In this document: piece by piece, positions 8,511 to 30,894 of the stretch
Numbering within the stretch: position 1 is the first letter of the stretch
How the letters are laid out: every line of letters begins with the position of its first letter
Assembly (NCBI GenBank): GCA_038046365.1
Contig: JBBSWF010000063.1
Span: forward strand, 1-45,795
Length of the DNA stretch: 45,795 nt
Direction of reading: 5' to 3'
DNA from: Nanobdellota archaeon
GTDB lineage: Archaea; Nanobdellota; Nanobdellia; Woesearchaeales; JAGWAF01
Position numbers and translations under genes: made by a program
Notes under the pieces: model-generated
What the model saw: only the letters and a program-made list of their open reading frames with translations
What the model was told of the DNA's origin: nothing
Databases searched by the model: none

Positions 8511-8942
8511 TTACCTTCCTGTTCCGCACACGATATGGACTTCACGTGTGGTGTCTCCTAGTGTCGCGCGCACTGAGTTGGATGCTTGTAAGAAGAGTAG
8601 TTCTGCTCCGGTCTTGATGCGCACGCCGACATCAGTCTGGCTGTTTCCTGGCCTTCGGCACTTGACGACTTCTTTTGGCGCGAGTGTTTGTCTTCCGCAA
8701 TAGCTTGCGACGCCAGTCATTTCCACGCCGTTGACTTCTATTGCCAGGTGGTCCATTCCTTCAATGGGTTTGTCTATGGAGAATGGGTTGTTTCCGTTGT
8801 TTGTGATAGTGAACGCGATGTCCTTTGTGTCTACTCCGCACTTTGCGTCTGATAAGAAGTCGGGTGGCGCGGTCTCGGTTGTTGTGCAAGAAAGAAGGGA
8901 GATCGCAAGTATTGCTGCCAATACGATGAGTGCGTTTTTCAT
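8511..8942 (-). CDS. Putative lipoprotein, Ig-like
   Basis: MKNALIVLAAILAISLLSC lipobox-like N-terminus; last gene of the pilin-like operon. Confidence 0.65.
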   Translation of the reverse strand: MKNALIVLAAILAISLLSCTTTETAPPDFLSDAKCGVDTKDIAFTITNNGNNPFSIDKPIEGMDHLAIEVNGVEMTGVASYCGRQTLAPKEVVKCRRPGNSQTDVGVRIKTGAELLFLQASNSVRATLGDTTREVHIVCGTGR

Positions 8943-8963
8943 GTGTTGATGGTATCTTGCCCA

Positions 8964-10265
8964 TTATTTAAGGCTTTCTTGGTTGGGTGTCATGAGAATT
9001 GGCGTTATCGGCACGATGTCGATTCCGGCTGTAATGTCTTTTTGTTCTTTTCTCTCGGCAGTGAGTGTCAGCGTGAATGGGGGGTTTACTGTGGGTTGCC
9101 ACGCGCCTGATACAGTTAGCTGCTGTGTCGCTGGATATGTCTCTACGTCCCATTGAGCGGGAGGTACCTGGTAGCAGGTCTTCTTGTTGCCCGCAGTCTC
9201 GGTCTGGCACAGCGACACGGTCAGCCCGTCAAGTCCTGGCGATGACAGTCTTCCGTGGTATGATAGCGGCTGTCCGGTCAGGAGTCCCATCCCTCCTTTG
9301 TCATTGGGCTTTCCGCTTGTGGGCACTCCGTTGGCTTGGAAGTTTATTATCTTGACTGGTGATTTCTTCACTACGGTGAGGGCGAATTTGTAGAGTGTGG
9401 GAGAATATGCCCATGTGGTGGATCCTGTTCCTGTCTTTCGTGTGAGCATTCTGCGGTCTGATTGCGCGCAGAATTGCACTATCCTTGTGTCTGGTGGCGC
9501 TAAATCTCCAGGGCATGGTCCGGTTTTCCATTTTATTGTCGCTCCGGGGGCGGTGTTTAGTATATAGACCTGCTCTGTTGCGCAATCGTAGGGTGTGCTT
9601 GTCTCTGCGCACTTCTCAAGTATCGTCTTTGCGCCTTCCCTGATAGTCGATAGTTCGTCTGCCACATCAGGGATTTTGGTGGTCGCAGAAAGGTATATTG
9701 TGGGTGTGGCCAGGGTTTCTCCTTTTTTGTTTTTGATAGGTATGGCAAGGGGCTGTGCTGATGTCGCTGTGAGTATCATTTCTTCATTGTGTTTTAGGAG
9801 TCCGATGTCGAATTGTCTTCGTGCGTCGATCCAGTCTCCTGATGGCGAGGCGTATGTGGCTAGTATCTCGTTGAATGATTTGACAAAGTGTGTCTTAAAT
9901 GAGGCAAAGGGATCGGGGTAGCATTCGGATAGCGTCTTGTCTGGGGTGTTCCATAGGCTGTATCCATTCACGATCCCGCAGTTGTCTTTCTCCCCCATGC
10001 CTCCGCGTCGTGCAAGCTCTAAGAGCGCTTGCTCTGCCGCTAGCGCGGCGGCTGATTCAGAGAACAGCTGCGCCTGGTCTGTGATGCTGTTCATCGACAT
10101 GAGGACTGCTGCGCTGTCTCCCACCTGGCCTTGTTTTGTCGTTGCTGTTTGCCGTCCTGCTAGGGCCACATAGGCCCAGACTAGGAAGAATATCACTGCT
10201 AGATTGAGTCCGATGCTAAACATCTGCCCTTTCTTCGACCGAATTATCTGGTGTCCAGCAGTCAT
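8964..10265 (-). CDS. Class III signal peptide (type IV pilin-like) protein, about 433 aa
   Basis: MTAGHQIIRSKKG|QMFSIGLNLAVIFFLVWAY; ATG 10265 overlaps the upstream TGA (ATGA). Confidence 0.75.
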   Translation of the reverse strand: MTAGHQIIRSKKGQMFSIGLNLAVIFFLVWAYVALAGRQTATTKQGQVGDSAAVLMSMNSITDQAQLFSESAAALAAEQALLELARRGGMGEKDNCGIVNGYSLWNTPDKTLSECYPDPFASFKTHFVKSFNEILATYASPSGDWIDARRQFDIGLLKHNEEMILTATSAQPLAIPIKNKKGETLATPTIYLSATTKIPDVADELSTIREGAKTILEKCAETSTPYDCATEQVYILNTAPGATIKWKTGPCPGDLAPPDTRIVQFCAQSDRRMLTRKTGTGSTTWAYSPTLYKFALTVVKKSPVKIINFQANGVPTSGKPNDKGGMGLLTGQPLSYHGRLSSPGLDGLTVSLCQTETAGNKKTCYQVPPAQWDVETYPATQQLTVSGAWQPTVNPPFTLTLTAERKEQKDITAGIDIVPITPILMTPNQESLK

Positions 10266-10927
10266 TTGGTCACCATCGTCTCTTTGGGGATGTAGAGGCT
10301 GATTTTGGCCTTGCCTTGCCAAAGGATTGGCACTGGCGCGCTTGCTGTTCTTTCTTCTTCAGGCTGAAGCAGTCCTTCTGATCCGATGTCAACTGATACG
10401 ACTTTGCTTGCTGGGTCGCTAAGGTCGTATTCGAATAGTAACGTTTTCTGGTTTGGCGGCGCTCTCGCGAATGTTGCTTCGCTGACTTCTTTAAATGTGA
10501 GCGCTAGTCGTGCGTTGTCTAAATATTGTGTCGTCGCAAGCAGCGATAGGAATTCTCCGTATGTCCTTCCTTTCCATATTTCTGGATTATCAGATAGGAA
10601 CTTCCAGGTGTCAGCGCTGACTTTTGTCGATGCTGCAAAGTCACCGTTATCTTTCACTCGATCGTCTTCGCCGGCTGCTCGCTGCTCGAACTGGTCGGGC
10701 AGAGGCGTTCTCATGTAGACTGATAATGTCGTGCCTATGTATGGGTTGGCGGCTGCTCCATCGATTATAGATGTCGTTCTTCCGCGGACCTCGACTATGT
10801 CCACTGCGCTAATCGCGTAGATGCCGTACATTGTCAGGTTGATTAGTAGGAGGTTGATTATCGATATTGTGTCTACTCCAAGGTCTGCCAGTTGTCCTTT
10901 CTTGTTCGTTCGCAGTGGTTGCCTCAT
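10262..10927 (-). CDS. Class III signal peptide (pilin-like) protein
   Basis: RTNKKG|QLADLGVDTISIINLLLINL. Confidence 0.75.
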   Translation of the reverse strand: MRQPLRTNKKGQLADLGVDTISIINLLLINLTMYGIYAISAVDIVEVRGRTTSIIDGAAANPYIGTTLSVYMRTPLPDQFEQRAAGEDDRVKDNGDFAASTKVSADTWKFLSDNPEIWKGRTYGEFLSLLATTQYLDNARLALTFKEVSEATFARAPPNQKTLLFEYDLSDPASKVVSVDIGSEGLLQPEEERTASAPVPILWQGKAKISLYIPKETMVTK

Positions 10928-11601
10928 CTTGGCGTCACCACTTCTGTTTTTGCAGTCGTCATGCGGTCCTTGTTCCCATCGCGTACAAGCACTGCGAGCG
11001 TCCTCTCGACTAAGTCAGCGCCTCCCTTTCCTTTGAGGCGGGTCTTTGCTATAGCAGAATAATCGTCATAGACTGCCTTGTTGTAGTACGCAGTCGAGTC
11101 TCCGATTGTTATCTTCGCTCCAATCGGAGAATCAGTGTACATGATGCGTCCGTCTAGGTATTTCGGGTCTTTTGAAGCGAGTGCCAGTTTCTGCGAGTCT
11201 ATCACTCCAGTTGGCGCCGCCTGCGTCGCAGTGTCGAAATATCCTAGCCCTTCTGGCGAGAACAGCGCCTTTGTTACCATCAAGTCTGATTGTATCTCTA
11301 CAGTGTTGATGCTGTCCGCTAAAAACACGCCCACGAGCGCCGGGGGGATTACTAGTGCTAGCGCGATGAGTATCACGCGCAGGAACACTGCGGTGGTCTG
11401 CACGCTGATCAGCCCTCTTTTCGTATTTGTATAGCGCCCTAAGGTCGAAATCCGCTTGTCTATAGACGCTGGCGCGTTGCGGGGGTTGCCCCATACGGGG
11501 CGCAGCGCCCGCGATGTTCCCGTCAAGGATTTCGAAGGCGCTATACAAATACCTCTTTTCGAATCGAGGATGGTGCCCGGCCGCTGTTTTGGAGGTCTCA
11601 T
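10924..11601 (-). CDS. Class III signal peptide (pilin-like) protein with a long basic leader
   Basis: TNTKRG|LISVQTTAVFLRVILIALALVI after about 60 basic residues; ATGA coupling on both sides. Confidence 0.7.
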   Translation of the reverse strand: MRPPKQRPGTILDSKRGICIAPSKSLTGTSRALRPVWGNPRNAPASIDKRISTLGRYTNTKRGLISVQTTAVFLRVILIALALVIPPALVGVFLADSINTVEIQSDLMVTKALFSPEGLGYFDTATQAAPTGVIDSQKLALASKDPKYLDGRIMYTDSPIGAKITIGDSTAYYNKAVYDDYSAIAKTRLKGKGGADLVERTLAVLVRDGNKDRMTTAKTEVVTPR

Positions 11602-12728
11602 TTTCCAGTCATCGCGTTCGCGATCTGCCTCCCGATCTCTTGTTCGTGTCCGGTTATTGGGTTCTTCTCGCTTGGCAAGTCTATGCCGTTTAGTTCCAGT
11701 TTGACTCCGACAGCGGGCCTATCAAGCATTTGGTCTTCCTCAAGTGTGTTGTCTAGTGTAGTGTCGATAGATACTATGTTCCCCCCGATGAAGACTGCTT
11801 CGCCGCTTTTCTTGTATTCTAGTATCGCGCTAATTAGAGTGCATGCTAGCTTCTCGCTCTCGGTTCGTGTCTTCTCGTCATTTTTGATGTATGCTGTGAT
11901 GCTGGCTTGTCCGGGGATCTTTGATTTGTGCGCGTGCACGCTCACTAGCGCTGCGTTCTGGCTCACTCGCTCAAGCCGTGCCTTCATCTCAAGTGCGGTG
12001 TTGTCCGGTCTTGTCAGCGCTGCTGTGCTTCCAGATCCTTTCATGTTCGCCGCGGCAGAAAGCGCGATCTTTGTCGTTATCTCGGATTCTATGGTTTTCC
12101 CGATCGTTGTCTCTGCTTGCGCCCCTGTGTCTCCTGCTCCTGCCACTCCTCCGTGTCCAGGGTCGATTATCACTTGTAGCGACGAGATGTCTGGGTTGGA
12201 TGGGCATCGCAGCCGATTGAGCAAAACAAGCCCTTGCGCGGGGTTTGTGGGATCTTGTTTGTCTCTCACTGTGATGAAGTTGTCATCTTTGATGATTAAT
12301 ATTGGGCTATTGATTGGGATTTCTTTGGCTGTAAATGGCAGTCTTGTGTCGATTGCGTAGGTCGCTTTCTCTTCCACTATAGTCTCGGCTCCTATTCCAG
12401 GTTCTTTCGGTTTCTCGTTTGATGCTGCAATGGCTTGTCCGTTCTCGAGCCGCTGCCGGAAGGCTGAATAAGGGAGTGTCATCATGTAGCTTGATCCAGG
12501 TATAGTGGCTGCAGTGGCGGTCAGTGACAGGTCTATCGCTGATTTCATCCTGTCGAATCGCGTATCGCTTGCGATCCTGGCTGCGTACTGCAAGAGGGCG
12601 ACCCATATCACTACAAGGACTATGGTCCATATGAGGTAGTAGGTCATTAGTTCTACGTCTCCTTTCTTGGATTTAAGAAGCCTGGATGGTAGCGATGACG
12701 CCATTGATGTTTTATTCCGATTCTTCAT
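11598..12728 (-). CDS. Pilin-like protein with N-acetylmuramoyl-L-alanine amidase (Amidase_3) domain
   Basis: KSKKG|DVELMTYYLIWTIVLVVIW; VIIDPGHGG, IESEIT, ALVSVHAH and VKLEL give the H-E-H Zn ligands plus the catalytic Glu. Confidence 0.85.
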   Translation of the reverse strand: MKNRNKTSMASSLPSRLLKSKKGDVELMTYYLIWTIVLVVIWVALLQYAARIASDTRFDRMKSAIDLSLTATAATIPGSSYMMTLPYSAFRQRLENGQAIAASNEKPKEPGIGAETIVEEKATYAIDTRLPFTAKEIPINSPILIIKDDNFITVRDKQDPTNPAQGLVLLNRLRCPSNPDISSLQVIIDPGHGGVAGAGDTGAQAETTIGKTIESEITTKIALSAAANMKGSGSTAALTRPDNTALEMKARLERVSQNAALVSVHAHKSKIPGQASITAYIKNDEKTRTESEKLACTLISAILEYKKSGEAVFIGGNIVSIDTTLDNTLEEDQMLDRPAVGVKLELNGIDLPSEKNPITGHEQEIGRQIANAMTGK

Positions 12729-12764
12729 GTTTCAGCCTGTTTCAATCGAGTTTTAGCGAGTGAG

Positions 12765-14831
12765 TCAAGGCGCGCTGCATGCAGTCGGGTATTCTGCTCT
12801 GTGCTCGCTCGCGCGCTTGCTTCCGATTTCGTAATGCCAGTATTCTTCTGTCCATCTGACAAAGCCTGCTTGACACATGACTGCTTCGAGTTGTTTGCGG
12901 TTTGTGTTTCCCATGTCTGATAGTCCTTCCCGCCCCATGTCTTCGCCTCTGAAGCGGACGTCGAGCGCCCGTCCGGTCACATGCGGCGCTGCGCAGCTTG
13001 GCGCTGCTGCTGGCGGTCCCATTCCGTTCTTGTGCGCGTCAAATAGCGCTTGCTGCCGCTCGATCGTGCGGTACGCGCTCGTTATCTCTAAGGTCTTCCC
13101 GGACCTCATGGCGATCTCTTGCGCTTTTTGGAATGCGAACACGACGTCCGGGTCTGCCACGCATCTTTTCTCGTCGAGCAGGTTCTGGGTGCAGGCTTCT
13201 TTTGGCAGCACTGCAAGTGTTGGTGTCGGACAGGTCGTCCCTGGCTTGACTTGGCTGCAAATGTCGAAGATGTCTGCTTCTGCGAGTTTGTCTGTGCATA
13301 TTCTGTTGATCTCGTCGTCTGCAGTCAGTCTTCTTCCGTCGCTCATAGTCTGCTCTGCTGGCGTGAACCTCAATTTGGCCTGCTGATATGTTGATAGCGC
13401 GTCCCTGACCAGCCCTTTCTTCTCTTGCAGTCCAGCTAGGATGAATCTTGCTTCGCGACTTTGGTCGTTGTCCGGGCTGCCTTGTGCGAATTCTGTGAGG
13501 AGTTTGATCGCTTCAGGGTCGTTCTTTTCTGCCGCTTGTTTCGCTCGAAGGAACGCGGCTGGAAGTGATGCTCCTTTAACGCTCTCCGCTTCTTTCAAAA
13601 AGTATGGCAGTAGGTTGTCTTTGATCTCCGGGAAGTAGTTCTGGAGTTTCTGGCTAAGGTCAAGTCCGCCTAGCACGGCGCGAGACTGCAAGTCTTGCAT
13701 TGAGACAGTTGTGTCTGCGCTTCGTTTGACGTATTCGTTTGTCGCTTTGTAGGATTTGACTGCGTAGAGTCCGGCGGTCTTGTCAGCTTGGTCGGGGTTA
13801 GGGGTGGTTATTGCTAGTTTCTCAAGTAAGATGCCTGCATCGCGGTATCCTATCTCACTCATCTTCTGGAATGCCTTTGATTGAAGGATGAGCATCGTGG
13901 CAGTCTCTATTGGTTTCGTGTTTGTCCCTGCTCTTTTCTCAAGCCATGTCTTGGAGTCGATTATCGTTCCGGTGAGATCTCCGCTGTCAAGCTTTGCCTG
14001 GACAGTGGGTATGGTGATGCCAAGCAGTGCCCGTAGCTCTTTCATTCTTTTGCTGCTTGCCTCTGATGCTGGGGAGACAGTGATATGGCTAGCTCCGTTG
14101 ATGGTGATTCTTTCCAGGTATAGCGGCCCGTTTTTGTACAGGGAAGATACTGACTGTTGGTAGAGCAGTGATTCCCCGCAGTTTGTGAGGTCTCCGTGCA
14201 TCATAAACAGGTAGTCGGTTGCTTGTAGCTCTGCAGCCAGGCCTTTTATTTCATGGATATTCTCCCGGATAGCTCCGAGGTTGTTGCCATATGTTGTCTC
14301 GGTCCTGCCGCTGATGTCGCTTCCGCCTTGCCTTGCTTCCTTAATCGAGCTGATCGTAGATACCCCGCCTATCTTCTTGCAAAGTTTCAGGCCTTTTGCT
14401 TGTTCTTCTGCAGACTCTCCAGGTGTTGGGTTCATCGATGAGTCGTATATGCATATGCAGGCCTTGCTTGCGCACTCAACCGGTTTCTTTCGCGCACCTA
14501 GGCATCCTGCGCCTTTTGTCTTGATTCCCTGCCCTCCTGTGTCAAATCCGATTAGGTAGTATTTCCCGTCGCTCATGGTGTATGGGAATTTCTCGACAGT
14601 CGCATATGGCTCGCTCTTCGCCGCCAGCCGGGCGAGTTCAGCTCCTAGCGAGTTGAAGCTGTCTGTGGCTGTCTGTTCAGTCCCCCCGCCGAACAAAAAC
14701 GGCCCAAAGTTGTAGATCACTGTGCTTGCTGTGACTAGCGCTATGGCTGCAAGTATCAAGCCTACTAGTTCCTGTGGCACCATCGCCTTGATCCCTTTAG
14801 CTCCTGCAAGAGCGACTCTCCGTCGTGGCAT
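12765..14831 (-). CDS. Pilin-like protein with TPR-like region and C-terminal M15 (VanY/VanX-like) peptidase domain
   Basis: KGIKA|MVPQELVGLILAAIAL (Glu at +5); ITSAYRTIERQQALF, HVTGRALD and EEYWHY. Confidence 0.85.
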   Translation of the reverse strand: MPRRRVALAGAKGIKAMVPQELVGLILAAIALVTASTVIYNFGPFLFGGGTEQTATDSFNSLGAELARLAAKSEPYATVEKFPYTMSDGKYYLIGFDTGGQGIKTKGAGCLGARKKPVECASKACICIYDSSMNPTPGESAEEQAKGLKLCKKIGGVSTISSIKEARQGGSDISGRTETTYGNNLGAIRENIHEIKGLAAELQATDYLFMMHGDLTNCGESLLYQQSVSSLYKNGPLYLERITINGASHITVSPASEASSKRMKELRALLGITIPTVQAKLDSGDLTGTIIDSKTWLEKRAGTNTKPIETATMLILQSKAFQKMSEIGYRDAGILLEKLAITTPNPDQADKTAGLYAVKSYKATNEYVKRSADTTVSMQDLQSRAVLGGLDLSQKLQNYFPEIKDNLLPYFLKEAESVKGASLPAAFLRAKQAAEKNDPEAIKLLTEFAQGSPDNDQSREARFILAGLQEKKGLVRDALSTYQQAKLRFTPAEQTMSDGRRLTADDEINRICTDKLAEADIFDICSQVKPGTTCPTPTLAVLPKEACTQNLLDEKRCVADPDVVFAFQKAQEIAMRSGKTLEITSAYRTIERQQALFDAHKNGMGPPAAAPSCAAPHVTGRALDVRFRGEDMGREGLSDMGNTNRKQLEAVMCQAGFVRWTEEYWHYEIGSKRASEHRAEYPTACSAP

Positions 14832-14951
14832 GCCTCTATTCCCCGACGATACGCTATTTAAAAGTTGTGACGATTACGTATTGTTCAACCGGTAGATGTT
14901 AACCGTCGGCTGTTAAGAATCGGCTGTTTTAGTCCTTTTTAAAGGAGAAAC

Positions 14952-15518
14952 CTATTTATTCAGTCGTTCCTGAACCAAGAACCAATATAAAAACAACTCT
15001 TTTTCCATATTTTGATGATCTTTGTACTTTTCTTTGATAATCTTCCAGAATAGTTCATTGTGCTTTCTTTCTTTTAGATGAGCAATTTCATGATAAACCA
15101 CATAATCAATCAAATGCACAGGCAAGTATCTTAACAAACTATTAACCATCAAATTTTTGCTAGAACTACAGCTTGCCCATTTAGATTTCATTTCCTTGAA
15201 ATAGACTTTGTTTACTTTTAAATGCAAGATGTGAAGATTTTCCTCAATTATGGAATGAACAAGCGCTTTGAACTCTTCTTGAGTTCTATTGATGTTTAAC
15301 TTTTTATTTTTGCTTGCTTTGAGAGAATTAAGTATCTCTTTGTGTTTCTTGTAAATCCATTCTTTATGAGTTTCAATAATTTTCTTTTCTGATTCATAGT
15401 TTTTTGGAAGAATGAGCATGAGATTGCCTGTTTTAAACTCTAAACGAGGATAATGAACTGGTCGATAGTTCACTGCATATTCAACATCCAGGTCGTAGAT
15501 TTTAATCTTCTTTTGCAT
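14952..15518 (-). CDS. YgjP/DUF45 (M48-like) metallopeptidase associated with type I RM
   Basis: MKSKWASCS and DYVVYHEIAHLKERKHNELFW; directly after hsdR. Confidence 0.92.
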   Translation of the reverse strand: MQKKIKIYDLDVEYAVNYRPVHYPRLEFKTGNLMLILPKNYESEKKIIETHKEWIYKKHKEILNSLKASKNKKLNINRTQEEFKALVHSIIEENLHILHLKVNKVYFKEMKSKWASCSSSKNLMVNSLLRYLPVHLIDYVVYHEIAHLKERKHNELFWKIIKEKYKDHQNMEKELFLYWFLVQERLNK

Positions 15519-18500
15519 AGGCTTTCACCCTATCCATGAGTTTATCGAATAAAACATTAAGGTCGTCAATCCTTAAACTGTGACGTTTAAGATATCGCCT
15601 TATGAATATCCTTACCGTCTTTTCGACTTCTTTTTGTGCTGTTGGCTGAGATATCCATCCCGCAAAGAGTAATTCATTCAATGAAATTGACAGTTCTCTT
15701 ATATCCTCAATTAATTCTACATCCTCCCCAAACTTATCTTCAAGAACAAGTAGCAACGAATAATCCAATTTACTTAATTTTAGCTCTTTTTGCCTTTGCG
15801 AGAGTTGCATGAATTCTTTGATTACTTTAACTCCTTCTTGGTATATTTTCTCATAGTCTTTTGTTTTTTCTTTCCACAAATAAAGAAGCCTCTGAACTTT
15901 CTCGCTAAGACTTTCCGAGACGGGGTTTTTAAATTTGTCAACGAGAACGAATCGGTTTAAAGTAAAGACTATGTTTGCTGCTTTTTCTTCTTTGTTCTTT
16001 ACATGCTGCTCAAGTTTTCTGAAATAGTCTTCATCAAATTCAATTATGGGAAGAGACTTCTGGATTTCTTCAAGCTCAGTTGTTTTGTGAATGTACTTTA
16101 TGGTTTTCTTGAAATATTGTTCTAAGTATCTATTGTCTTTTGGTTGACTTCTCAGAACAAGTCGCGTATAGTAGGTATAAATTGCGCTTATCCACTGATA
16201 TTCTGAGAAGAGTTCTGCTTTTATTGTGTCAGGACCAAGCAACTCAAATATTTTTGTCATGTGCTTGTAGTCTTCTATGAATGCCCTGCTTTTTTCTTCA
16301 TTTGAAGTGAGTATCTCCATAGCTTTTAGCAGAGTTTTACGATCATATTGGCTTTTTGGAACCTCTTTGAAGATGTCTAAGATTTGGTTCATCAATTTTA
16401 CAAAGTCCTTCCTGATTTCCTCAATGCTAAAGAGTGCACCGTTTATCTCTTCTTTGCTATAAATTTCAAACGCTCTCCTGAATTCTTTTAAAATTCCGAT
16501 ATAGTCCAGAATCAATCCTGCTTCTTTGACATCTTTATATGGTCTGTTTGTTCTGGCTATTGCTTGCAACAGCTTGTGCTCTTTCAATGGTTTGTCTAAG
16601 TACATTGTTTGAAGTACTGGAGCGTCAAAACCAGTCAAGAGCATATCAGTCACAATAATAATCTTTGGCGAGTCTTCTTCCTTGAATTTTTCAATAACAT
16701 CTTTTCGAATATCTTCATACTCCTTGCCATATTGAGCAGTTTCTTCTTTGACATACATAGCAATCCTGTCGGGCTCATCCCGTGCGCCATAACTAAACAC
16801 AATATCAGAATATTCTTCAGGAAGATACTTGTCAAGCTCTTTTTTGTACAGAACACAAGATTCCCTGTTTACCGCAACAACCATTGCCTTGAATTTACCA
16901 TCAACATTTTCTTTGAAATGCTCAGCGATATCCTTTGCTACTTTTGCAATTCTTTGAGGATTCTCAAGATACGCCTTTAGCAAGCTAATTTTCTTCTTAA
17001 CATCCTCTTTAACAACTTCTCTTGCGTCTTCTGGAATTTCTTCATACTCAACTTCCAAAAATGTATCAAGCATCTCTTTATTCAAATGAACTTCTCTTTC
17101 AAGTCGCGGTTGATATGCTATTTTTACAGTAAATCCATCGTTAATGGAGTCTGTAATGAAATACTTGTCAAGGTACTTCTCTTCTGGAGGATAACTGAAC
17201 ACATCATATGTGTCAACACCTTTCTTAGGCTTTGAAATGGGTGTGCCTGTAAATGCAAAAAAGAATGTGTTCTTGAGTATGGCCCTCATTTGAGCTGCTA
17301 ACGTGCCATATTGTGTCCTGTGGCCTTCATCTACGAATGCGACAACATTCTTCCTCGTAAGAATTGTTTCTTTATCTGTTGAGATTTTCTCAAGCTCTTT
17401 TTGAAGCACATGAAGTTCTTCAGCTCGAAATTTGTGAATGAGCGTGATGAAAATACCTCTCTTACCTCTCCCTTGATCGTGCTGAAGAACTTTCCTCATG
17501 CCGCTAACCGAACCAATAAGTTCTGGAAGAGTCATATCCAGAGCATTAAACTCATCATAAAGCTGTTCCTCTAAATCCTGCCTATCGATAATGAGGAATA
17601 TTGTTGGGTTAGCCATTGCCTCAGAGCGGTATAGCTTGTTTGCTGCAAAAATCATTTCTAAAGTCTTTCCAGAACCTTGCCAGTGCCAGACCAGACCTTT
17701 ATTTTTTTCTTCTTTGCCTTCAATATTATTGATGACTCTCTGAACGACTTTGCCTACTGCCCGATATTGCATGTATCTGGGAAGAACCTTTGTGGCTTCT
17801 CCAAACTGAACCCTGACATAAACAAAGTTATTGATGACATCAAGCAGTGTTTCTGGAATAAACAACTGAATAACTGAGTCTATGGAGTCAAGTTTTTCTG
17901 ATTTCCATTCATCTATCTTCACGTTTTCATTCCAGGAAACAATTGGGAAATACTTGGCTATTTGTTCTGCAGCAACACCTATCTGTACATATTTGTAGAG
18001 CTCAGGAATATCTTGTTCGTAACTTTTGATTTGTTTGAATGCGTCATACCAGTTTTCTGAGAAACTCGCTGGATTCTTGCACTCAATATCTACTAACGGA
18101 ATGCCATTAACATACAGAAAGATATCCGTTCGTATTTGCTTGTTGCCTCTCGTGTAAACGGCCTGTCTTGTGACAATAAACTCGTTATTTTGGACATTGT
18201 CATAATCAAAAAGCCTGATTCTCTTGAGCGTTTTATCCTTTTCAATCTTGATGGAGATGCCTTCTTTTAAGTAAAGAAGTATCTGTTTTATACCCTCCTG
18301 AGTGCTTGGCTTAAACCTGAGTTCATTGAGTAAATTTTTAATATCCTCGTCGCTCAGATCAATAGGATTGATAGCTTTTACTTGCCTGATTAAATTCCTA
18401 ATTAAAAGTGGTTCTTCAAAATTGTCTCTGTCTAATGCATTTCCTGGGATGAAAGTCCATCCTTTACTTTGAAGTTGTTCAGTAATATAGTCTTCCACAA

Positions 18501-18525
18501 CTGATTTTTTGTTAAAGCGAGGCAT
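15502..18525 (-). CDS. hsdR: Type I restriction endonuclease subunit R
   Basis: DIFLYVNGIPLVDIECK nuclease motif, WHWQGSGKT, DEGHR, FTGTP, DMLLTGFDAP and QAIARTNR. Confidence 0.97.
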   Translation of the reverse strand: MPRFNKKSVVEDYITEQLQSKGWTFIPGNALDRDNFEEPLLIRNLIRQVKAINPIDLSDEDIKNLLNELRFKPSTQEGIKQILLYLKEGISIKIEKDKTLKRIRLFDYDNVQNNEFIVTRQAVYTRGNKQIRTDIFLYVNGIPLVDIECKNPASFSENWYDAFKQIKSYEQDIPELYKYVQIGVAAEQIAKYFPIVSWNENVKIDEWKSEKLDSIDSVIQLFIPETLLDVINNFVYVRVQFGEATKVLPRYMQYRAVGKVVQRVINNIEGKEEKNKGLVWHWQGSGKTLEMIFAANKLYRSEAMANPTIFLIIDRQDLEEQLYDEFNALDMTLPELIGSVSGMRKVLQHDQGRGKRGIFITLIHKFRAEELHVLQKELEKISTDKETILTRKNVVAFVDEGHRTQYGTLAAQMRAILKNTFFFAFTGTPISKPKKGVDTYDVFSYPPEEKYLDKYFITDSINDGFTVKIAYQPRLEREVHLNKEMLDTFLEVEYEEIPEDAREVVKEDVKKKISLLKAYLENPQRIAKVAKDIAEHFKENVDGKFKAMVVAVNRESCVLYKKELDKYLPEEYSDIVFSYGARDEPDRIAMYVKEETAQYGKEYEDIRKDVIEKFKEEDSPKIIIVTDMLLTGFDAPVLQTMYLDKPLKEHKLLQAIARTNRPYKDVKEAGLILDYIGILKEFRRAFEIYSKEEINGALFSIEEIRKDFVKLMNQILDIFKEVPKSQYDRKTLLKAMEILTSNEEKSRAFIEDYKHMTKIFELLGPDTIKAELFSEYQWISAIYTYYTRLVLRSQPKDNRYLEQYFKKTIKYIHKTTELEEIQKSLPIIEFDEDYFRKLEQHVKNKEEKAANIVFTLNRFVLVDKFKNPVSESLSEKVQRLLYLWKEKTKDYEKIYQEGVKVIKEFMQLSQRQKELKLSKLDYSLLLVLEDKFGEDVELIEDIRELSISLNELLFAGWISQPTAQKEVEKTVRIFIRRYLKRHSLRIDDLNVLFDKLMDRVKAYAKED

Positions 18526-19054
18526 TTTTTATCATCCTTTGTTTTTTATGATATTCTAGCCAGTGATTGTACATATCACCATGTTCTTTGCTTTTCCTTG
18601 ATGTTACAAAACCGAATACATGTTCTAGATAATCCCTGTCCATTTTGAAATTCGCTTTGTCTTTTAATCCTAAATGTTCTATTATCTCTTTATCTGATGA
18701 ACCACCATCTCTCAGTTCTCTCGCTATCTTCATAATATCGTTTTGATTATATTTTGAATGTTTGTATAGATCAACCACTCCAGTTATCTCACAGCCCATA
18801 CCTGAGTGTTTTATCAGATTGCACATTTGGCAAATTACTTGAAAGTTCTCATCGCTGTTATTCTCTGGGTCGCCATCAATGTGATCGACAATTTGGTATT
18901 TTTCTAAGCGAAATTCACAGTAAGCGCAAGTGTAGTTATCTCTATTAAGGAATTTTAATCTCATTTTCTGCCATGCTTCTCCTTTAAGGTTCAGAGCTTG
19001 CAGGGGGTTTCTCCATTTTGCAGATGGAGCGAAGGATAAAATGAGTGGTTTCAT
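18512..19054 (-). CDS. HNH endonuclease
   Basis: RDNYTCAYC..VDHIDGDPENNSDENFQVICQMCN. Confidence 0.88.
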   Translation of the reverse strand: MKPLILSFAPSAKWRNPLQALNLKGEAWQKMRLKFLNRDNYTCAYCEFRLEKYQIVDHIDGDPENNSDENFQVICQMCNLIKHSGMGCEITGVVDLYKHSKYNQNDIMKIARELRDGGSSDKEIIEHLGLKDKANFKMDRDYLEHVFGFVTSRKSKEHGDMYNHWLEYHKKQRMIKNASL

Positions 19055-19548
19055 TGTTTTCCTCCGGTTCTCAGTTCCTCATATATATCTTCCAAAGTGT
19101 CCTTATGACCCCACCCTTCACAACTTCGCTCAATAATGGAGTCAAGTCTTGATTTAAACTCAGGTATCAATTTCTCATTATCATTCAGGATTTTAACAAT
19201 CTGTTCAAACATGGATTCCATACTTGAATAAAACGATTCATACATGTCGCCGTATTTTTCTCCAATTTTAACTCCAATCTCAACATAGAATGTCATCAAC
19301 TCCAAAAGGTGCTCTGGCTGTTTTGATATTCTCTTAAAATCAGAAATGACTTTTCTTGCCTCACGAAGATTTATTCTTTCGTTCCAAAGGATATTTCTTA
19401 ATTTTTTCTTATAATACGCGATTGCATCTTCTGGGTTTTTCTCAAGTTTAAGCCTCAAAAAGTCTGCGTTTTCTTTGTTTAGGCTGGATAGCTCAAGCAG
19501 AAGTGAATACAATTCTTCTTTTCCGAGTTTTTTGAGCGTTTGGTTCAT
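19051..19548 (-). CDS. Conserved helical hypothetical protein (DUF6155-like)
   Basis: LREARKVISDFKR..LELMTFYVE..YGDMYESFYSSMESMF..GWGH; family recalled from memory. Confidence 0.6.
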   Translation of the reverse strand: MNQTLKKLGKEELYSLLLELSSLNKENADFLRLKLEKNPEDAIAYYKKKLRNILWNERINLREARKVISDFKRISKQPEHLLELMTFYVEIGVKIGEKYGDMYESFYSSMESMFEQIVKILNDNEKLIPEFKSRLDSIIERSCEGWGHKDTLEDIYEELRTGGKQ

Positions 19549-19581
19549 TTTCCTTTTAATCGTGCGATCTTTTCGTACACT

Positions 19582-20424
19582 TCATTCCAGTTTCCTTTTG
19601 GGTTTATCTGCAAGCGTTTTCTCATCCTTTTTTACCTTTCTTTCAAGTTTCTTGAGGTCTTCTTCTGCAGGAAGCTCTTCTGGTTTTATTCCTCTTTGCA
19701 CAAGGAGATTTCGTACATCTGTATTATTTCTTATATGCTCATTTGTGATATTGCTTTCCCCTTGCAAGTCATCTCTTTTTACATTAAAATTAGTTATTTC
19801 AGTGGCAAGATTCTTAGCTGTTATAGTTATTGTTGGTAGGAAGTCTGCCATCGCCCTGTTTTTTGGGATGCTCAGTTTAGTTTTCATTTGCAGGGTTGTT
19901 TTACCACCGAATAGGGCTGCATCTCCCTTACTTCTTATTCTGGCAAATCCGTCATCATCAACACCTCGCTCATAAATAAGTTTAGATAACTCAGTTTCGG
20001 ATGCTGTTAACTTTTTGCGAGCTTCCAATCTTTCTATTAGGGCTATGCGTTCTTCTATTAGTTCTTGCTTTCGTGTCTGGACAGCAAAATAGCTTTGGGC
20101 AAATGCGATTTCCTCTTTTCTTGGGTCTCCATTCTGTGCGATAAGGTAGCAAGCATATCTGGTAAGCATGAAATCCTCAATTTCCCGCTCTGCTCCAGAT
20201 CCTAAATCGACCTTTTTCCCGACCTCGGGAAAATGGTCTGCTACCGAATATCCTGAGTTTTTACAGGCTTCTTTTGCTCTTTGGATAACCTTAACAAAGT
20301 TCTCCCATTTAGAATAACCTAGTAAACCTTGTAAATCCCTTGCAAGCCAGAACTCAATACCTTCTTTTTCATAGGCATAATCTTCAAAAGACTTCCTCAA
20401 TATGGATATGATTTCTTTTTTCAT
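19582..20424 (-). CDS. dinD: DNA damage-inducible protein D
   Basis: FWLARDLQGLLGYSKWENF, LTRYACYLIAQNGDPRKEEIAFAQSYFAVQTRKQE and IRSKGDAALFGG. Confidence 0.92.
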   Translation of the reverse strand: MKKEIISILRKSFEDYAYEKEGIEFWLARDLQGLLGYSKWENFVKVIQRAKEACKNSGYSVADHFPEVGKKVDLGSGAEREIEDFMLTRYACYLIAQNGDPRKEEIAFAQSYFAVQTRKQELIEERIALIERLEARKKLTASETELSKLIYERGVDDDGFARIRSKGDAALFGGKTTLQMKTKLSIPKNRAMADFLPTITITAKNLATEITNFNVKRDDLQGESNITNEHIRNNTDVRNLLVQRGIKPEELPAEEDLKKLERKVKKDEKTLADKPKRKLE

Positions 20425-20768
20425 GTAAGTGCCCCCATAACATTATGTAAACACTTACATAGGCCATTTATCTGCACAAGCATTTTCAAACCGTGACGAT
20501 TTGTAACGGTTTCAGATTGAACCTTTTTGTTGATGCCAGCAAAATGGTCAGGGAGCTCAGCAGACACTGCCAACTGTACGATTTTATCGTACAGTTCAAA
20601 TCCTTCTGCTGAAAGCTTAGTTTTCAGATCAGACCAGTACCTTTTAGGGATTGTACTGGTTTCTAAGGCATTGATTACATCGACAACAGAGAAATACCAC
20701 TCATTTTCGTGCCAAACTCTCCTTATTTTCTTGTCTTGGAAGACAACCAAAGCATTGTGATCAGTCAT
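20421..20768 (-). pseudogene. Truncated or mosaic Bro-N domain gene
   Basis: IRRVWHENEWYFSVVDVI..YWSDLK Bro-N start, followed by a scrambled C-terminus containing DinD-like DHFAGINKKV and Bro-like ETVTNRHGLKM. Confidence 0.65.
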
Positions 20769-21259
20769 TTTGTTTCCTCCGCCTGTAATTGATAGCCTTT
20801 AATTTTGAATAAATTATTCTTTTTTAACCATGAGATGACTGTATTTAATGGATTATTCCAATGATTTTCAAAATAGGGATGTGCCACAGAGGTTTCTTTA
20901 TTATTCATAAGAATGCTATTATTTGGTTTATTTTTCTGCGTTCTTTTTTTGTAGAACAGAAGACCGTGCGCCCAAGAGTTTCTATCAGGGTTCAATTGAT
21001 TTAGCGCTTGAACGAACTCATAGAAGTTTTTAGTGTCATTAAGCCTGTTTTCTGTTAATTTTTGTATAAACAAATCCTTCATTTGTCCGTATGTTTTTCT
21101 GCTTTTTGTTTCACCACAATATTGTTTCATGATGAGCTCTATAATCGACATACAATGGATAATTCTGCCCCTTAACTCATGAACTTTCTTTAAGTCTAGG
21201 ACATCTTTTTCTGACTCTCTGCCAGATTTCCCCTTAAGTATTAAGATTTCAGTTACCAT
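20765..21259 (-). CDS. Putative HEPN-domain protein
   Basis: Helical protein with RNSWAH (Rx4H) and an N-terminal IIE helix. Confidence 0.5.
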   Translation of the reverse strand: MVTEILILKGKSGRESEKDVLDLKKVHELRGRIIHCMSIIELIMKQYCGETKSRKTYGQMKDLFIQKLTENRLNDTKNFYEFVQALNQLNPDRNSWAHGLLFYKKRTQKNKPNNSILMNNKETSVAHPYFENHWNNPLNTVISWLKKNNLFKIKGYQLQAEETK

Positions 21260-21263
21260 TTAT

Positions 21264-27190: not shown

Positions 27191-27766
27191 TCATGCGATC
27201 AGCAAGTCGTCTATTGTCTCTTTCTTGGTGCCTAGGCTCGCTATCTGTATCACGGTCTTGCCGTCATTTTTGTAATGCTTTGTGGCTATCATGCATTTTC
27301 CATCTGGCGATTTCTCGCATTTGGATACCGCGGCGTTGTCCGGCTGTATGTCGCATGCGTCAGGCATGCCGTCATTATCTTTGTCGAACAGGTTTGATCC
27401 AATCGCCTGCTGCTGCGTGTCGTCCTTGGCAGGGGCCTTGGTGTTTGGGTCCATGCAGAAGTCGCAGCTGTCTGCTAGGCAATCTCCATCTTTGTCTTTG
27501 TCAGACGGGACGCAGGATTTGGGAAGTCGCTGTTCTAGGTAGCATATGCTGTCTTTTGTCTTTGCTTCTGTGGGGCTTAGCACTTGGTCCACAGGACCGT
27601 AGCTTCGCATGAATACGACTACAAGGACCACCATCACGACAAGCCCGATTATTGCTGCGATTACGACTCCCCAGCTGAAGTCGCCTCGTTCGCCCATTCC
27701 TAATTGCGGTGGCGTTCTTTGTTGTGGAACTTTTCTTGGTTTCATGGGAGGGGTCTTCCTTGCCAT
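27191..27766 (-). CDS. Pilin-like protein with thrombospondin type 3-like Ca-binding motifs
   Basis: ERG|DFSWGVVIAAIIGLVVMVVL; DKDKDGDCLADSCD and DKDNDGMPDACD. Confidence 0.75.
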   Translation of the reverse strand: MARKTPPMKPRKVPQQRTPPQLGMGERGDFSWGVVIAAIIGLVVMVVLVVVFMRSYGPVDQVLSPTEAKTKDSICYLEQRLPKSCVPSDKDKDGDCLADSCDFCMDPNTKAPAKDDTQQQAIGSNLFDKDNDGMPDACDIQPDNAAVSKCEKSPDGKCMIATKHYKNDGKTVIQIASLGTKKETIDDLLIA

Positions 27767-27770
27767 CGTC

Positions 27771-28025: not shown

Positions 28026-28056
28026 TGTATTGTGGCTCTTGTTTTGGTGTTTTTAA

Positions 28057-28215: not shown

Positions 28216-28244
28216 ACAGGCGTCTTGGATTGAATCGTGTGCGA

Positions 28245-29684: not shown

Positions 29685-29704
29685 TTCACAAGTACCTCAT
29701 GATA

Positions 29705-30885: not shown

Positions 30886-30894
30886 CGTCTGCCT

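What the first reader, a model, noticed from the sequence alone, without database searches (positions are those of the whole stretch)
8511..14831. Type IV pilin-like proteins carrying peptidoglycan hydrolases in an apparent archaeon
Seen: five tightly packed minus-strand genes (four joined by ATGA overlaps) begin with class III signal peptides (KKG|Q, KKG|Q, KRG|L, KKG|D, KA|MVPQE). One carries an intact Amidase_3 site (DPGHGG, E, SVH, E) and another an M15 peptidase (SAYR, HxxGxAxD, ExWH) behind TPR-like helices. Known: these families cut bacterial murein stem peptides, and archaea of this type make no murein. Inference: a pilus or pseudopilus displaying two complementary wall-cutting enzymes, i.e. 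a contact apparatus for attacking or parasitising bacteria rather than archaeal hosts.
Basis: partly seen in the sequence, partly recalled or inferred. Interest (0 to 1): 0.9.

Follow-up and report, generated by a model that had tools for sequence, protein, structure and literature searches.

The report
Wall-cutting enzymes on archaeal pilin-like proteins
A tiny groundwater archaeon that builds no bacterial-type cell wall carries, in its pilus-subunit gene cluster, two subunit-like proteins fused to enzymes that cut bacterial cell wall, which suggests that it works on bacteria from the outside.

Summary
Five minus-strand genes at 8964-14831 start with a basic leader, a K/R-G/A motif and a hydrophobic helix. 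One carries an intact Amidase_3 domain. Another carries a VanY/LdcB-like M15 peptidase behind helical repeats.

The genome is archaeal, and 36 related loci carry mostly Candidatus Woesearchaeota titles. A prepilin peptidase and a T2SSE ATPase lie on other contigs. I found no murein transpeptidase, SEDS polymerase or alanine racemase.

The five genes are half of a conserved, colinear pilin-like cluster. In this genome an 11.4-kb low-GC restriction-modification island splits it. The amidase protein's N-terminal carrier domain occurs in 169 of 201 sampled genomes of the order. It has 2052 representatives in a 1.84-billion-protein library.

Among the best 150 representatives, the only Pfam families found were five murein hydrolase families, in at most 32 proteins. 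The neighbouring carrier family adds M15, SLT and glucosaminidase modules.

Best reading (0.6): these are modular, pilin-like surface proteins that present murein hydrolases to foreign bacterial wall. Assembly into a filament, processing by the peptidase and attack on living bacteria are inferred, not shown. No pilin HMM matched.

I rate it a new variant of known kinds: bacterial modular pilins and archaeal peptidoglycan hydrolases.

The parts
12765..14831 (-). 688-aa modular pilin-like protein. It has a leader and hydrophobic helix, a Cys-containing beta head (about residues 76-254), TPR-like helical repeats (about 257-530) and a C-terminal M15 (VanY/LdcB-like) zinc peptidase (about 549-676).
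   Evidence: Pfam Peptidase_M15 and VanY score over their cut-offs. The motifs SAYR, HVTGRALD and EYWH are present. The AF2 model has pLDDT 73.3. Foldseek finds VanXYc, LdcB, VanY and Ply500. Orthologues are colinear in relatives.
11598..12728 (-). 376-aa modular pilin-like protein. It has a leader ending KKG, a helix at residues 21-73, a beta-sheet at 80-156 and a C-terminal Amidase_3 domain (185-374).
   Evidence: Pfam Amidase_3 scores 49.7 bits. D189, H192, G193, E214, S263, H265 and E345 are invariant in 6 of 6 sequences. The AF2 model has pLDDT 83.3. Foldseek finds LytH, AmiC2 and CwlV with TM up to 0.78. The N-domain occurs in 169 of 201 genomes of the order.
10924..11601 (-). 225-aa pilin-like protein (family p225). 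It follows the amidase-carrier gene in nearly all related loci that hold both, and its leader is interrupted in frame by a MITE.
   Evidence: The family HMM finds it in 29 of 43 distinct related loci. It shares an ATGA overlap with the upstream gene.
11423..11552 (.). 130-bp MITE inside the leader-coding part of the 225-aa gene. It has perfect 16-nt terminal inverted repeats and an 8-bp target duplication, and it lies in frame (138 nt added).
   Evidence: Twelve other contigs of the genome hold copies or parts at 92-100% identity.
10262..10927 (-). 221-aa pilin-like protein (family p221).
   Evidence: ATGA overlaps on both sides. Homologues were found in 8 related loci.
8964..10265 (-). 433-aa pilin-like protein (family p433), the last conserved gene of the cluster.
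   Evidence: ATGA overlap at 10262-10265. There are 23 family members in related loci. The nearest Atlas clusters are hypothetical proteins from Woesearchaeota.
8511..8942 (-). 143-aa protein with a lipoprotein-like signal. It lies downstream in the same direction and is not conserved in the related loci.
   Evidence: There is a weak NCBIfam lipoprotein N-terminus hit. Its HMM found nothing in the related loci.
14855..14863 (-). TATA-like TTTTAAATA box 23 nt upstream of the ATG of the 688-aa gene.
   Evidence: This is read from the sequence only; its function is inferred.
14952..26363 (-). Low-GC (0.33-0.41) island that splits the pilin cluster. It encodes a YgjP-like peptidase, HsdR, HNH, DUF6155, Bro-N, HsdS, a D12 methyltransferase and HsdM.
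   Evidence: The two flanks are adjacent in relatives. The island is present in all 4 runs laid.
27191..31668 (-). Other half of the cluster: pilin-like proteins q191, q479, q320 and q257.
   Evidence: They are colinear with relatives.
34733..35518 (-). Two tandem small proteins (141 and 109 aa) with a GQG-M/L-S leader end, a strongly conserved hydrophobic helix and C-terminal cysteines. They are the candidate major pilins.
   Evidence: Thirty-six related loci were found through this family.
36216..39942 (-). 942-aa Cys-rich protein and 292-aa protein with the same kind of N-terminus, at the upstream end of the cluster.
   Evidence: N-terminal paralogues of the 942-aa protein lie on C4, C184 and C143.

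Best explanation
The region is one half of the conserved type-IV-filament pilin gene cluster of a Woesearchaeota (DPANN) archaeon.

Two of its minor-pilin-like subunits are modular. An N-terminal pilin-like carrier (leader, K/R-G/A, hydrophobic alpha-helix, small beta head) is fused to a murein hydrolase. One carrier bears a MurNAc-L-Ala amidase (Amidase_3). The other bears a VanY/LdcB-like M15 zinc peptidase behind TPR-like repeats.

Shown:
- the domains, their intact catalytic residues and their predicted folds;
- the conserved carriers and the conserved synteny;
- recurrent fusion of several unrelated murein hydrolase families to the same two carriers;
- an archaeal genome in which no murein synthesis genes were found;
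- a prepilin peptidase and an ATPase elsewhere in the genome.

Inferred:
- The Peptidase_A24 homologue removes the leaders.
- The hydrophobic helix holds the enzymes either in the filament (probably with the other minor subunits at its tip) or at its base on the cell surface.
- The enzymes cut the wall of bacteria that the cell touches. This would be to anchor to them, to breach them or to release material from them.
For: Domains and residues:
- Pfam hits score over their cut-offs.
- The amidase Zn-ligand and catalytic positions are invariant in 6 of 6 orthologues at 20-25% identity.
- The M15 motifs are intact in the window protein and in 3 of 6 aligned relatives.
- AF2 models give pLDDT 83.3 and 73.3. 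Each has an N-terminal helix of about 53 residues, then a beta-sheet, then the enzyme domain.
- Foldseek finds LytH, AmiC2 and CwlV for the amidase, and VanXYc, LdcB, VanY and Ply500 for the peptidase.

Cluster:
- Gene order is colinear in relatives.
- 36 loci were found through the small pilin-like protein. Their titles are mostly Candidatus Woesearchaeota and include the complete AR15 chromosome.
- The amidase carrier N-domain occurs in 169 of 201 sampled genomes of the order, and in 129 of 152 high-quality ones.
- It has 2052 library representatives at E<=0.001. In the best 150 the match is always N-terminal. Their lengths are bimodal: 53 under 200 aa and 91 of 260-400 aa.

Modules:
- Pfam on those 150 found only Amidase_3 (28), Amidase_2 (1), NLPC_P60 (1), Peptidase_M15_4 (1) and SLT (1), and nothing else.
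- My own amidase HMM hits 49 of the 150.
- The second carrier family (25 members) holds Peptidase_M15 (4), VanY (3), SLT (1) and Glucosaminidase (1).
- Amidase_3 scores over its cut-off in 36 of 201 genomes of the order. In 20 of the 38 genomes with a hit at E<=0.001, the hit lies directly behind the carrier match on the same strand (compared by eye; a lower bound).

Genome:
- TBP is present.
- Peptidase_A24 lies on C75.
- The T2SSE ATPase lies on C154, next to a 733-aa ORF that holds the genome's only T2SSF-like match, which is weak.
- Transpeptidase, FtsW/RodA and alanine racemase each gave 0 hits, and Mur_ligase_M gave 1, as in the archaeal controls.

Literature (passages read):
- In DPANN the ATPase and platform genes are adjacent while the pilins are scattered (PMC13705601).
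- Modular pilins are widespread in bacteria (PMC8179133).
Against: - No curated pilin or class III signal HMM matched any protein of the cluster, not even the small candidate major pilins, at permissive thresholds.
- The Foldseek lists show only the enzyme and TPR parts, so the pilin fold rests on secondary structure and not on a structural match.
- The platform protein is supported only by a 14-bit T2SSF match at E 0.055.
- The ATPase, platform and peptidase are not linked to the cluster in this genome. No homologue lies within 10 kb of it in the 45 related loci.
- The M15 module is degenerate in two orthologues and missing in one.
- Many family members carry no recognised module: 53 of 150 are short, and about 60 long ones have no Pfam hit.
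- The M15 fold relatives include trimming carboxypeptidases and dipeptidases, which do not lyse walls on their own.
- No host is known.
- The genome is 86% complete, so the missing pathway genes are 'not found', not 'absent'.
Confidence: 0.6

Rival explanations
1. Bindosome-like surface enzymes for scavenging. The class III signal only anchors the enzymes at the cell surface, with no filament. They trim and release fragments from free wall debris in groundwater rather than attacking living cells.
For: - Class III signals on non-filament proteins are known in Sulfolobus (bindosome; PMC3047682, abstract seen in the listing).
- The closest M15 folds include VanXY, VanY and LdcB carboxypeptidases and dipeptidases, which trim stem peptides.
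- NCBIfam's best, sub-threshold hit is a D-Ala-D-Ala dipeptidase.
- The reduced genomes of relatives, 0.6-2.1 Mb, fit a lifestyle that depends on outside supply.
Against: - No alanine racemase and no glucosamine-6-phosphate isomerase family member was found in the 86%-complete genome, so no route to use D-Ala or amino sugars is visible. This is weak evidence.
- The genes sit inside a conserved cluster with small pilin-like genes, and their carriers are near-universal in the order.
- Lytic families (SLT, Amidase_2, NlpC/P60, glucosaminidase) occur on the same carriers.
Confidence: 0.2
2. Plain signal-anchored membrane proteins. The N-terminal helix is an uncleaved transmembrane anchor, and the likeness to pilins is superficial.
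For: - No pilin or class III HMM matched.
- Two of the five helices contain charged residues and fail my strict rule.
- The 688-aa protein has no clean K/R-G motif directly before its helix.
Against: - The basic-G/A motif directly before the helix is conserved in 28 of 29 orthologues at 12-24% identity and in 141 of 150 representatives. A plain anchor would have no need of it.
- The modelled helix of about 53 residues packed on a beta-sheet is the pilin layout.
- Small proteins of 79-141 aa with the same N-terminus lie in the cluster.
- A Peptidase_A24 is encoded in the genome.
Confidence: 0.1
3. The substrate is not bacterial murein. The enzymes would act on the archaeon's own envelope, on an archaeal host's wall (for example pseudomurein), or only to let the filament pass.
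For: - All cultured DPANN hosts known to me are archaea (recalled).
- Wall hydrolases that serve their own secretion or pilus machines are known in bacteria (recalled).
Against: - No murein synthesis markers were found in the genome.
- At least seven Pfam families are fused to the two carriers: Amidase_3, Amidase_2, NlpC/P60, SLT, glucosaminidase, M15/VanY and M15_4. They cut different bonds of murein, and murein is their only common substrate.
- From general knowledge, pseudomurein lacks MurNAc and D-amino acids.
Confidence: 0.07
4. Artefact: a bacterial contig was wrongly binned into an archaeal genome.
For: - The window has no rRNA, tRNA or universal marker genes.
- One related locus bears a bacterial title (L041, Dehalococcoidales).
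Against: - The same colinear cluster lies in dozens of Woesearchaeota records, including a 1.56-Mb scaffold and the complete AR15 chromosome.
- The carrier occurs in 169 of 201 genomes of the order.
- The contig's GC content outside the island matches the genome.
- There is an archaeal-type TATA box upstream.
Confidence: 0.02

Closest known systems
Bacterial modular type IV pilins (Streptococcus sanguinis PilB and PilC; PMC8179133, passages read)
   Same: A small N-terminal pilin module carries a grafted functional module. Family members with and without the module coexist. A tip location is proposed for the bulky subunits.
   Different: This case is archaeal, and the leader is not the bacterial IPR012902 type. 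The grafted modules are murein hydrolases. The main text of that paper names lectin, vWA and peptidase S74-type modules, and the terms 'peptidoglycan' and 'hydrolase' occur 0 times in it. Its Dataset S1 could not be seen.
Secreted archaeal peptidoglycan hydrolases (Woldo and Danwoldo of Halogranum salarium; PMC12352652, passages read)
   Same: These are archaeal proteins with bacterial-type wall hydrolase domains, interpreted as acting on bacteria. For those proteins killing of a bacterium was shown.
   Different: Those are soluble Tat- or Sec-secreted enzymes with peptidoglycan-binding domains. That survey defined its hydrolases as a catalytic domain plus a binding domain and reports only Sec and Tat signals; the word 'pilin' occurs 0 times in its text. 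Here there is no binding domain, and a pilin-like carrier sits inside a pilin gene cluster.
Lytic murein transglycosylases (GH23) reported in Woesearchaeota MAGs (PMC9723730, passages read; the AR20 genome is cited there)
   Same: The lineage is the same, and so is the inference that some Woesearchaeota degrade bacterial wall.
   Different: That paper reports large GH23 genes found by a CAZy scan. The terms 'pili', 'pilin', 'amidase' and 'type IV' occur 0 times in its text. Here the modules are an amidase and an M15 peptidase, on conserved pilin-like carriers. SLT was not found in this genome.
Archaeal type IV filament systems of DPANN (PMC13705601, passages read; Epd-like 'system 1')
   Same: The ATPase and platform genes are adjacent while the pilin genes lie elsewhere, as described there for Nanobdellati.
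   Different: In that text 'hydrolase', 'peptidoglycan' and 'enzym' occur 0 times. I did not test whether this cluster belongs to system 1.
Sulfolobus bindosome (PMC3047682; only the abstract in the listing was seen)
   Same: Class III signal peptides on functional, non-filament proteins that stay at the cell surface.
   Different: The cargo there is sugar-binding proteins assembled by a dedicated Bas system. Here the cargo is enzymes, set within a cluster that has small pilin-like genes.
Endolysins and cell-wall amidases or peptidases (LytH, CwlV, AmiC2; VanY, LdcB, Ply500)
   Same: The predicted folds and metal-binding motifs of the two C-terminal domains match.
   Different: The proteins sit in a host organism without murein, and the N-terminal architecture is different.

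Membership tests
Amidase_3 (PF01520, MurNAc-L-Ala amidase) | Profile score over the curated cut-off | tested here: met
   49.7 bits against a cut-off of 27, residues 186-308. The match covers profile positions 1-118 of 174. The rest of the domain is supported by the model.
Amidase_3 (PF01520, MurNAc-L-Ala amidase) | Zn ligands (His, Glu, His) and catalytic Glu present | tested here: met
   H192, E214, H265 and E345 are invariant in 6 of 6 orthologues. H192, E214 and H265 align with solved amidases; that alignment stops before E345. The assignment of roles to these positions is by analogy and recalled.
Amidase_3 (PF01520, MurNAc-L-Ala amidase) | Fold | tested here: met
   Foldseek finds LytH (E 1e-9, TM 0.77-0.78 on the target), AmiC2, CwlV and others. 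In all, 32 matches have E<=0.001.
Amidase_3 (PF01520, MurNAc-L-Ala amidase) | Hydrolysis of the MurNAc-L-Ala bond | not testable with these tools
   This needs an enzyme assay on sacculi or muropeptides.
Peptidase M15 / VanY (PF01427, PF02557; LAS zinc peptidases) | Profile score over the curated cut-off | tested here: met
   36.6 bits against 27, and 29.7 against 25. All NCBIfam equivalogs (DdpX, VanX, VanY, VanXY) score far below their cut-offs, so it is not a member of any of those named subfamilies.
Peptidase M15 / VanY (PF01427, PF02557; LAS zinc peptidases) | SxxR, HxxGxAxD and ExxH motifs | tested here: met
   All three motifs are present in the window protein, P0002, L016 and L017. They are degenerate in L015 and L018, and the module is absent in L019. 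They align to LdcB and VanX at these motifs, weakly (E 0.016 and 0.046).
Peptidase M15 / VanY (PF01427, PF02557; LAS zinc peptidases) | Bond specificity (D,D- or L,D-carboxypeptidase, dipeptidase, or L-Ala-D-Glu endopeptidase) | tested here: inconclusive
   The fold relatives span all of these specificities.
Type IV pilin / class III signal peptide proteins | Short basic leader, G/A at -1, about 20 hydrophobic residues at the mature N-terminus | tested here: met
   The motif is present in 28 of 29 orthologues and 141 of 150 representatives. The rule I applied was recalled from FlaFind-type rules and written by me.
Type IV pilin / class III signal peptide proteins | Match to a curated pilin or class III HMM | tested here: not met
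   There were no such hits for the five proteins at E<=0.1 in Pfam or E<=1 in NCBIfam. There were none for the small pilin-like proteins at E<=10, apart from one sub-threshold Flp1_like hit at E 0.012 in a relative.
Type IV pilin / class III signal peptide proteins | Pilin fold: long N-terminal helix packed on a beta-sheet | tested here: inconclusive
   The AF2 secondary structure fits: helices 21-73 and 19-71, then strands. No structural match to a solved pilin was seen, because the enzyme domains dominate the lists.
Type IV pilin / class III signal peptide proteins | Prepilin peptidase, assembly ATPase and platform protein in the genome | tested here: met
   Peptidase_A24 on C75 and T2SSE on C154 score over their cut-offs. 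The platform is supported only weakly (T2SSF E 0.055, in the ORF next to the ATPase).
Type IV pilin / class III signal peptide proteins | Leader cleavage and incorporation into a filament | not testable with these tools
   This needs proteomics, or heterologous processing and imaging.
Modular pilins (as defined in PMC8179133) | A pilin module plus a module not specific to pilus biology, with module-less relatives | tested here: met
   The carrier family has a bimodal length distribution (53 short, 95 long, of 150). Pfam modules are found only in the C-terminal part. This depends on the carrier being a true pilin module (see the rows above).

The most novel reading that the evidence does not exclude
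Woesearchaeota, one of the most widespread DPANN lineages and one whose partners are unknown, would use a type IV filament whose minor subunits are armed with interchangeable murein hydrolases. The modules seen are amidases, M15 peptidases, NlpC/P60, lytic transglycosylases and glucosaminidases. The filament would act as a contact-dependent tool to open the wall of living bacteria. In that case bacteria, not archaea, are hosts or prey of part of this lineage, and enzyme-tipped pili are a new functional class of type IV filaments.
Probability: 0.3. Interest if true: 0.9.

Novelty: new variant of a known kind. Interest (0 to 1): 0.75.

Why it matters
The partners and lifestyle of Woesearchaeota are an open question. 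Earlier hints that they deal with bacteria rested on scattered hydrolase genes.

Here the hydrolases are tied to a specific, near-universal surface apparatus of the lineage. At least seven different murein-cutting Pfam families have been grafted onto the same two carriers.

This gives three things that can be tested directly:
- defined domains to assay on sacculi;
- a defined peptidase-substrate pair;
- a marker architecture for finding which Woesearchaeota are likely to interact with bacteria.

It would also extend the modular-pilin concept to archaea and to enzymatic cargo. It may help explain why a survey that reported only Sec and Tat signals found no recognised signal peptide on most archaeal wall hydrolases.

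Tried and rejected
- The search for homologous proteins with the two full proteins found only the proteins themselves and one relative each, at 73-76% identity.
- The search for homologous proteins with the N-domain profile A8 and 'longer' lengths again found only those two. The word filter was saturated, so this says nothing about rarity.
A 3-row alignment worked.
- Complex prediction on the amidase carrier head (residues 45-172) with the head of the 225-aa protein gave no verdict: score 0.04 against a mark of 0.32, and the controls were not run. This is neither for nor against binding.
- The look-up of sequencing runs listed no RNA holder, so I have no evidence on expression.
- Read laying found no contig that joins across the low-GC island or across the MITE. 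Contigs break at the MITE.
- No flanking direct repeats of the island were found.
- The protein-atlas search on the 433-aa protein returned only hypothetical Woesearchaeota clusters at scores of 0.82 or less.
- The archaeal SSU rRNA model found nothing in the genome, and the window has no tRNA.
- tblastn of the ATPase, the 733-aa ORF, the peptidase and a dockerin protein against the 45 related loci found nothing at 1e-5.
- The listing of cluster members gave a name for only 1 of 10 clusters, 'N-acetylmuramoyl-L-alanine amidase'.
- I considered and dropped the idea that the organism is a pseudomurein methanogen. The relatives' titles and genome sizes point to Woesearchaeota.

Literature. Six searches found no paper that links pilins or class III signals to wall hydrolases in archaea. 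Supplements were closed. Dataset S1 of PMC8179133, Table S2 of PMC12352652 and Tables S4 and S5 of PMC13705601 may list such proteins, and I could not see them.

Full report
**What is in the region**

The region 8511-14831 holds six minus-strand genes:
- 12765-14831, 688 aa
- 11598-12728, 376 aa
- 10924-11601, 225 aa
- 10262-10927, 221 aa
- 8964-10265, 433 aa, counted from the ATG that overlaps the upstream stop
- 8511-8942, 143 aa, with a lipoprotein-like signal

Three ATGA overlaps join the middle four genes. The first two genes are 36 nt apart. A TATA-like TTTTAAATA lies 23 nt upstream of the first ATG.

**The two enzyme domains**

Pfam places Amidase_3 in the 376-aa protein at 49.7 bits against a cut-off of 27. 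It places Peptidase_M15 and VanY in the C-terminus of the 688-aa protein, at 36.6 against 27 and 29.7 against 25. NCBIfam gives only sub-threshold hits to named amidases and to D-Ala-D-Ala peptidases.

The other three proteins and the small neighbours match no family.

**N-termini**

All five proteins begin with a basic leader, a K/R-G/A motif and a hydrophobic helix.
- My own strict rule passes 56 of 2279 non-overlapping ORFs genome-wide. It passes 3 of these 5 genes. The other two have a charged residue in the helix.
- Conservation is the stronger evidence. In orthologues at 12-24% identity the motif sits at the aligned position in 28 of 29 rows. It lies in the first 35 residues of 141 of 150 library representatives.

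**The organism**

The window is contig C63 of a 2.02-Mb, 184-contig genome that is 86% complete and has GC 0.50.
- TBP is present.
- Relatives have 0.6-2.1 Mb.
- 36 loci were found through the small pilin-like protein. Their titles are mostly 'Candidatus Woesearchaeota archaeon'. Some read 'Nanoarchaeota', some are TPA records titled 'uncultured Methanosarcinales', and one is the complete Archaeon GW2011_AR15 chromosome.
- NCBI taxonomy places the phylum in Nanobdellati, that is DPANN.
- In the own genome I found no Transpeptidase, no FtsW/RodA/SpoVE, no alanine racemase and no SLT. There was one Mur_ligase_M hit, as in the archaeal control genomes. At 86% completeness these are 'not found', not 'absent'.

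**Context**

A second set of minus-strand genes with the same kind of N-terminus lies at 27191-39942. It includes two tandem small proteins of 141 and 109 aa with a strongly conserved helix.

Between the two sets lies an 11.4-kb stretch of GC 0.33-0.41. It encodes HsdR, HsdS, HsdM, a D12 methyltransferase, an HNH protein, Bro-N, DUF6155 and a YgjP-like peptidase.

In relatives the two sets are contiguous and colinear. The order is:
1. small pilin-like genes
2. q320 (one or two copies)
3. q257 (in some)
4. a small pilin-like gene or q191
5. the family of the 688-aa protein
6. the family of the 376-aa protein
7. p225
8. p221 (in some)
9. p433

. So the island is an insertion into a conserved cluster. 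It is present in all four metagenome runs that I laid.

Selection caveat: loci L015-L023 were brought in by likeness to the 688-aa protein. L024-L059 were brought in by the small pilin-like protein. L030 and L038 duplicate L018 and L019 and were dropped from the counts.

**Are the enzymes real?**

Amidase:
- D189, H192, G193, E214, S263, H265 and E345 are invariant in 6 of 6 sequences at 20-25% identity.
- The region up to residue 318 aligns with solved amidases.
- The AlphaFold model has pLDDT 83.3 and pTM 0.76. It shows a helix at 21-73, strands at 80-156 and an alpha/beta domain at 185-374.
- That domain matches LytH, AmiC2, CwlV, AmiP and others, with TM on the target up to 0.78.

M15 domain:
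- The SxYR, HxxGxAxD and ExWH motifs are intact in the window protein, its 73% relative and two distant orthologues. They are degenerate in two others, and the module is missing in one.
- Weak sequence alignments to LdcB and VanX fall on these motifs.
- The model has pLDDT 73.3. It shows a helix at 19-71, a beta head to about 254, helical repeats at 257-530 and the peptidase at 549-676.
- Foldseek finds VanXYc, LdcB, VanY, the Ply500 and LysB4 endolysin domains and VanX, plus TPR proteins at E near 0.01.
- The bond it cuts cannot be told from this.

**How general is it?**

The N-terminal 159 residues of the amidase protein define a carrier family.
- A profile of 29 orthologues found it in 169 of 201 genomes sampled from the order, and in 129 of 152 high-quality ones. 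It is mostly present once per genome.
- The same profile found 2052 representatives at E<=0.001 in 1.84 billion proteins, and 1189 at E<=1e-10.
- In the best 150 the match is always at the N-terminus. Lengths are bimodal: 53 under 200 aa, 2 of 200-259, 91 of 260-400 and 4 longer.
- Pfam on these 150 found five families and nothing else: Amidase_3 (28), Amidase_2 (1), NLPC_P60 (1), Peptidase_M15_4 (1) and SLT (1).
- My own amidase HMM hits 49 of the 150.
- Among 29 orthologues from the loci, 6 have Amidase_3 and 1 has Peptidase_M15_4.
- Among 25 members of the family of the 688-aa protein, 4 have Peptidase_M15, 3 VanY, 1 SLT, 1 Glucosaminidase and 1 TPR repeats.
- Amidase_3 scores over its cut-off in 36 of 201 genomes of the order, and at E<=0.001 in 38.
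- I compared the place tables by eye. In 20 of those 38 genomes the amidase match lies directly behind the carrier match on the same strand, and one more is adjacent but in a separate frame. This is a lower bound, because 29 matches were not listed.
- These tallies include genomes flagged unpublished (G122; also G131 and G192).

**Machinery**
- A Peptidase_A24 gene lies on C75.
- A 769-aa T2SSE ATPase lies on C154. Beside it is a 733-aa ORF that holds the genome's only T2SSF-like match, which is below threshold at E 0.055.
- Neither has a homologue within 10 kb of the cluster in the 45 related loci.
- This layout, with ATPase and platform adjacent and pilins elsewhere, is what a 2026 survey describes for Nanobdellati (PMC13705601, passages read).

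**Interpretation**

The most economical reading is that the two proteins are modular pilin-like subunits. A conserved carrier of the lineage's type IV filament cluster has repeatedly been fused to murein hydrolases.

Several unrelated families that cut different bonds of murein sit on the same two carriers, and they are the only recognisable cargo. So the common substrate is very probably murein. The genome shows no murein pathway, so the murein would be foreign.

The following steps are inference:
- that the leader is cleaved;
- that the proteins enter a filament, possibly as a tip complex with the three overlapping downstream genes;
- that the target is a living bacterium.

The main rivals are a bindosome-like surface display for scavenging wall debris and an uncleaved membrane anchor. 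Evidence against my reading:
- No curated pilin HMM matched.
- No structural match to a solved pilin was obtained.
- The platform evidence is weak.
- The M15 module is variable.

**Comparison with the literature**
- Bacterial modular pilins are established (PMC8179133, passages read). Its main text names no wall hydrolase module, and its dataset could not be seen.
- Archaeal secreted wall hydrolases that kill bacteria are established (PMC12352652, passages read). That survey reports only Sec and Tat signals, finding a recognised signal on 67 of 210 archaeal homologues, and it never mentions pilins.
- Lytic transglycosylases in Woesearchaeota MAGs were reported as a sign of predation (PMC9723730, passages read), with no mention of pili or amidases.
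- A term search of the 2016 census of archaeal type IV pili found none of my terms bearing on this (PMC4858521).
- Six full-text searches found no paper that joins the two themes.

I therefore rate this a new variant of known kinds, with high interest for DPANN biology.

**Verdict**
- Best explanation: confidence 0.6.
- Most novel reading, an enzyme-armed pilus against living bacteria: about 0.3.

Noticed in passing
window 11423-11552: A 130-bp MITE with perfect 16-nt terminal inverted repeats and an 8-bp target duplication sits in frame in the leader-coding part of the 225-aa gene. It adds 46 codons without a stop and duplicates the SKRG motif, so the predicted cleavage site survives. Copies or parts at 92-100% identity lie on 12 other contigs of the genome, and metagenome contigs break at it.
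   Followed up: yes
window 14952-26363: An 11.4-kb low-GC island splits a pilin cluster that is contiguous in relatives. It holds a type I restriction-modification system, a D12 methyltransferase, HNH, Bro-N, DUF6155 and a YgjP-like peptidase. It is present in all four groundwater runs laid. No flanking direct repeats were found.
   Followed up: partly
window 27191-39942: This is the second half of the cluster. It includes two tandem candidate major pilins (34733-35158 and 35189-35518, the second hidden under a spurious 429-aa plus-strand ORF). It also holds a 942-aa Cys-rich pilin-like protein whose N-terminal 220 residues have paralogues on contigs C4, C184 and C143.
   Followed up: partly
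window 32248-32969: A PIN and MazE-type toxin-antitoxin pair lies inside the pilin cluster. An RmlD-like epimerase gene follows on the other strand.
   Followed up: no
window 20481-20514 and 26455-26527: Short stretches with raised contig depth and loose ends in several runs. They are probably further small repeats, and one lies at the right edge of the island.
   Followed up: no
L041 (titled Dehalococcoidales bacterium) and many TPA records titled 'uncultured Methanosarcinales archaeon': These records carry the same Woesearchaeota-type pilin cluster. The titles are probably placeholder or wrong taxonomy, or the contigs were misbinned.
   Followed up: no
G000 C154:21387-23567: A 726-aa secreted protein with a dockerin type I domain lies directly downstream of the ATPase and the putative platform gene.
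   Followed up: no
L016:2553-4412 and L017:3715-5772: In these two relatives the middle part of the orthologue of the 688-aa protein looks like a glycan-cutting domain instead of TPR repeats. Pfam found one SLT and one Glucosaminidase among the 25 family members, but the tally does not say which member. If they are these two proteins, each carries two wall hydrolase modules.
   Followed up: partly
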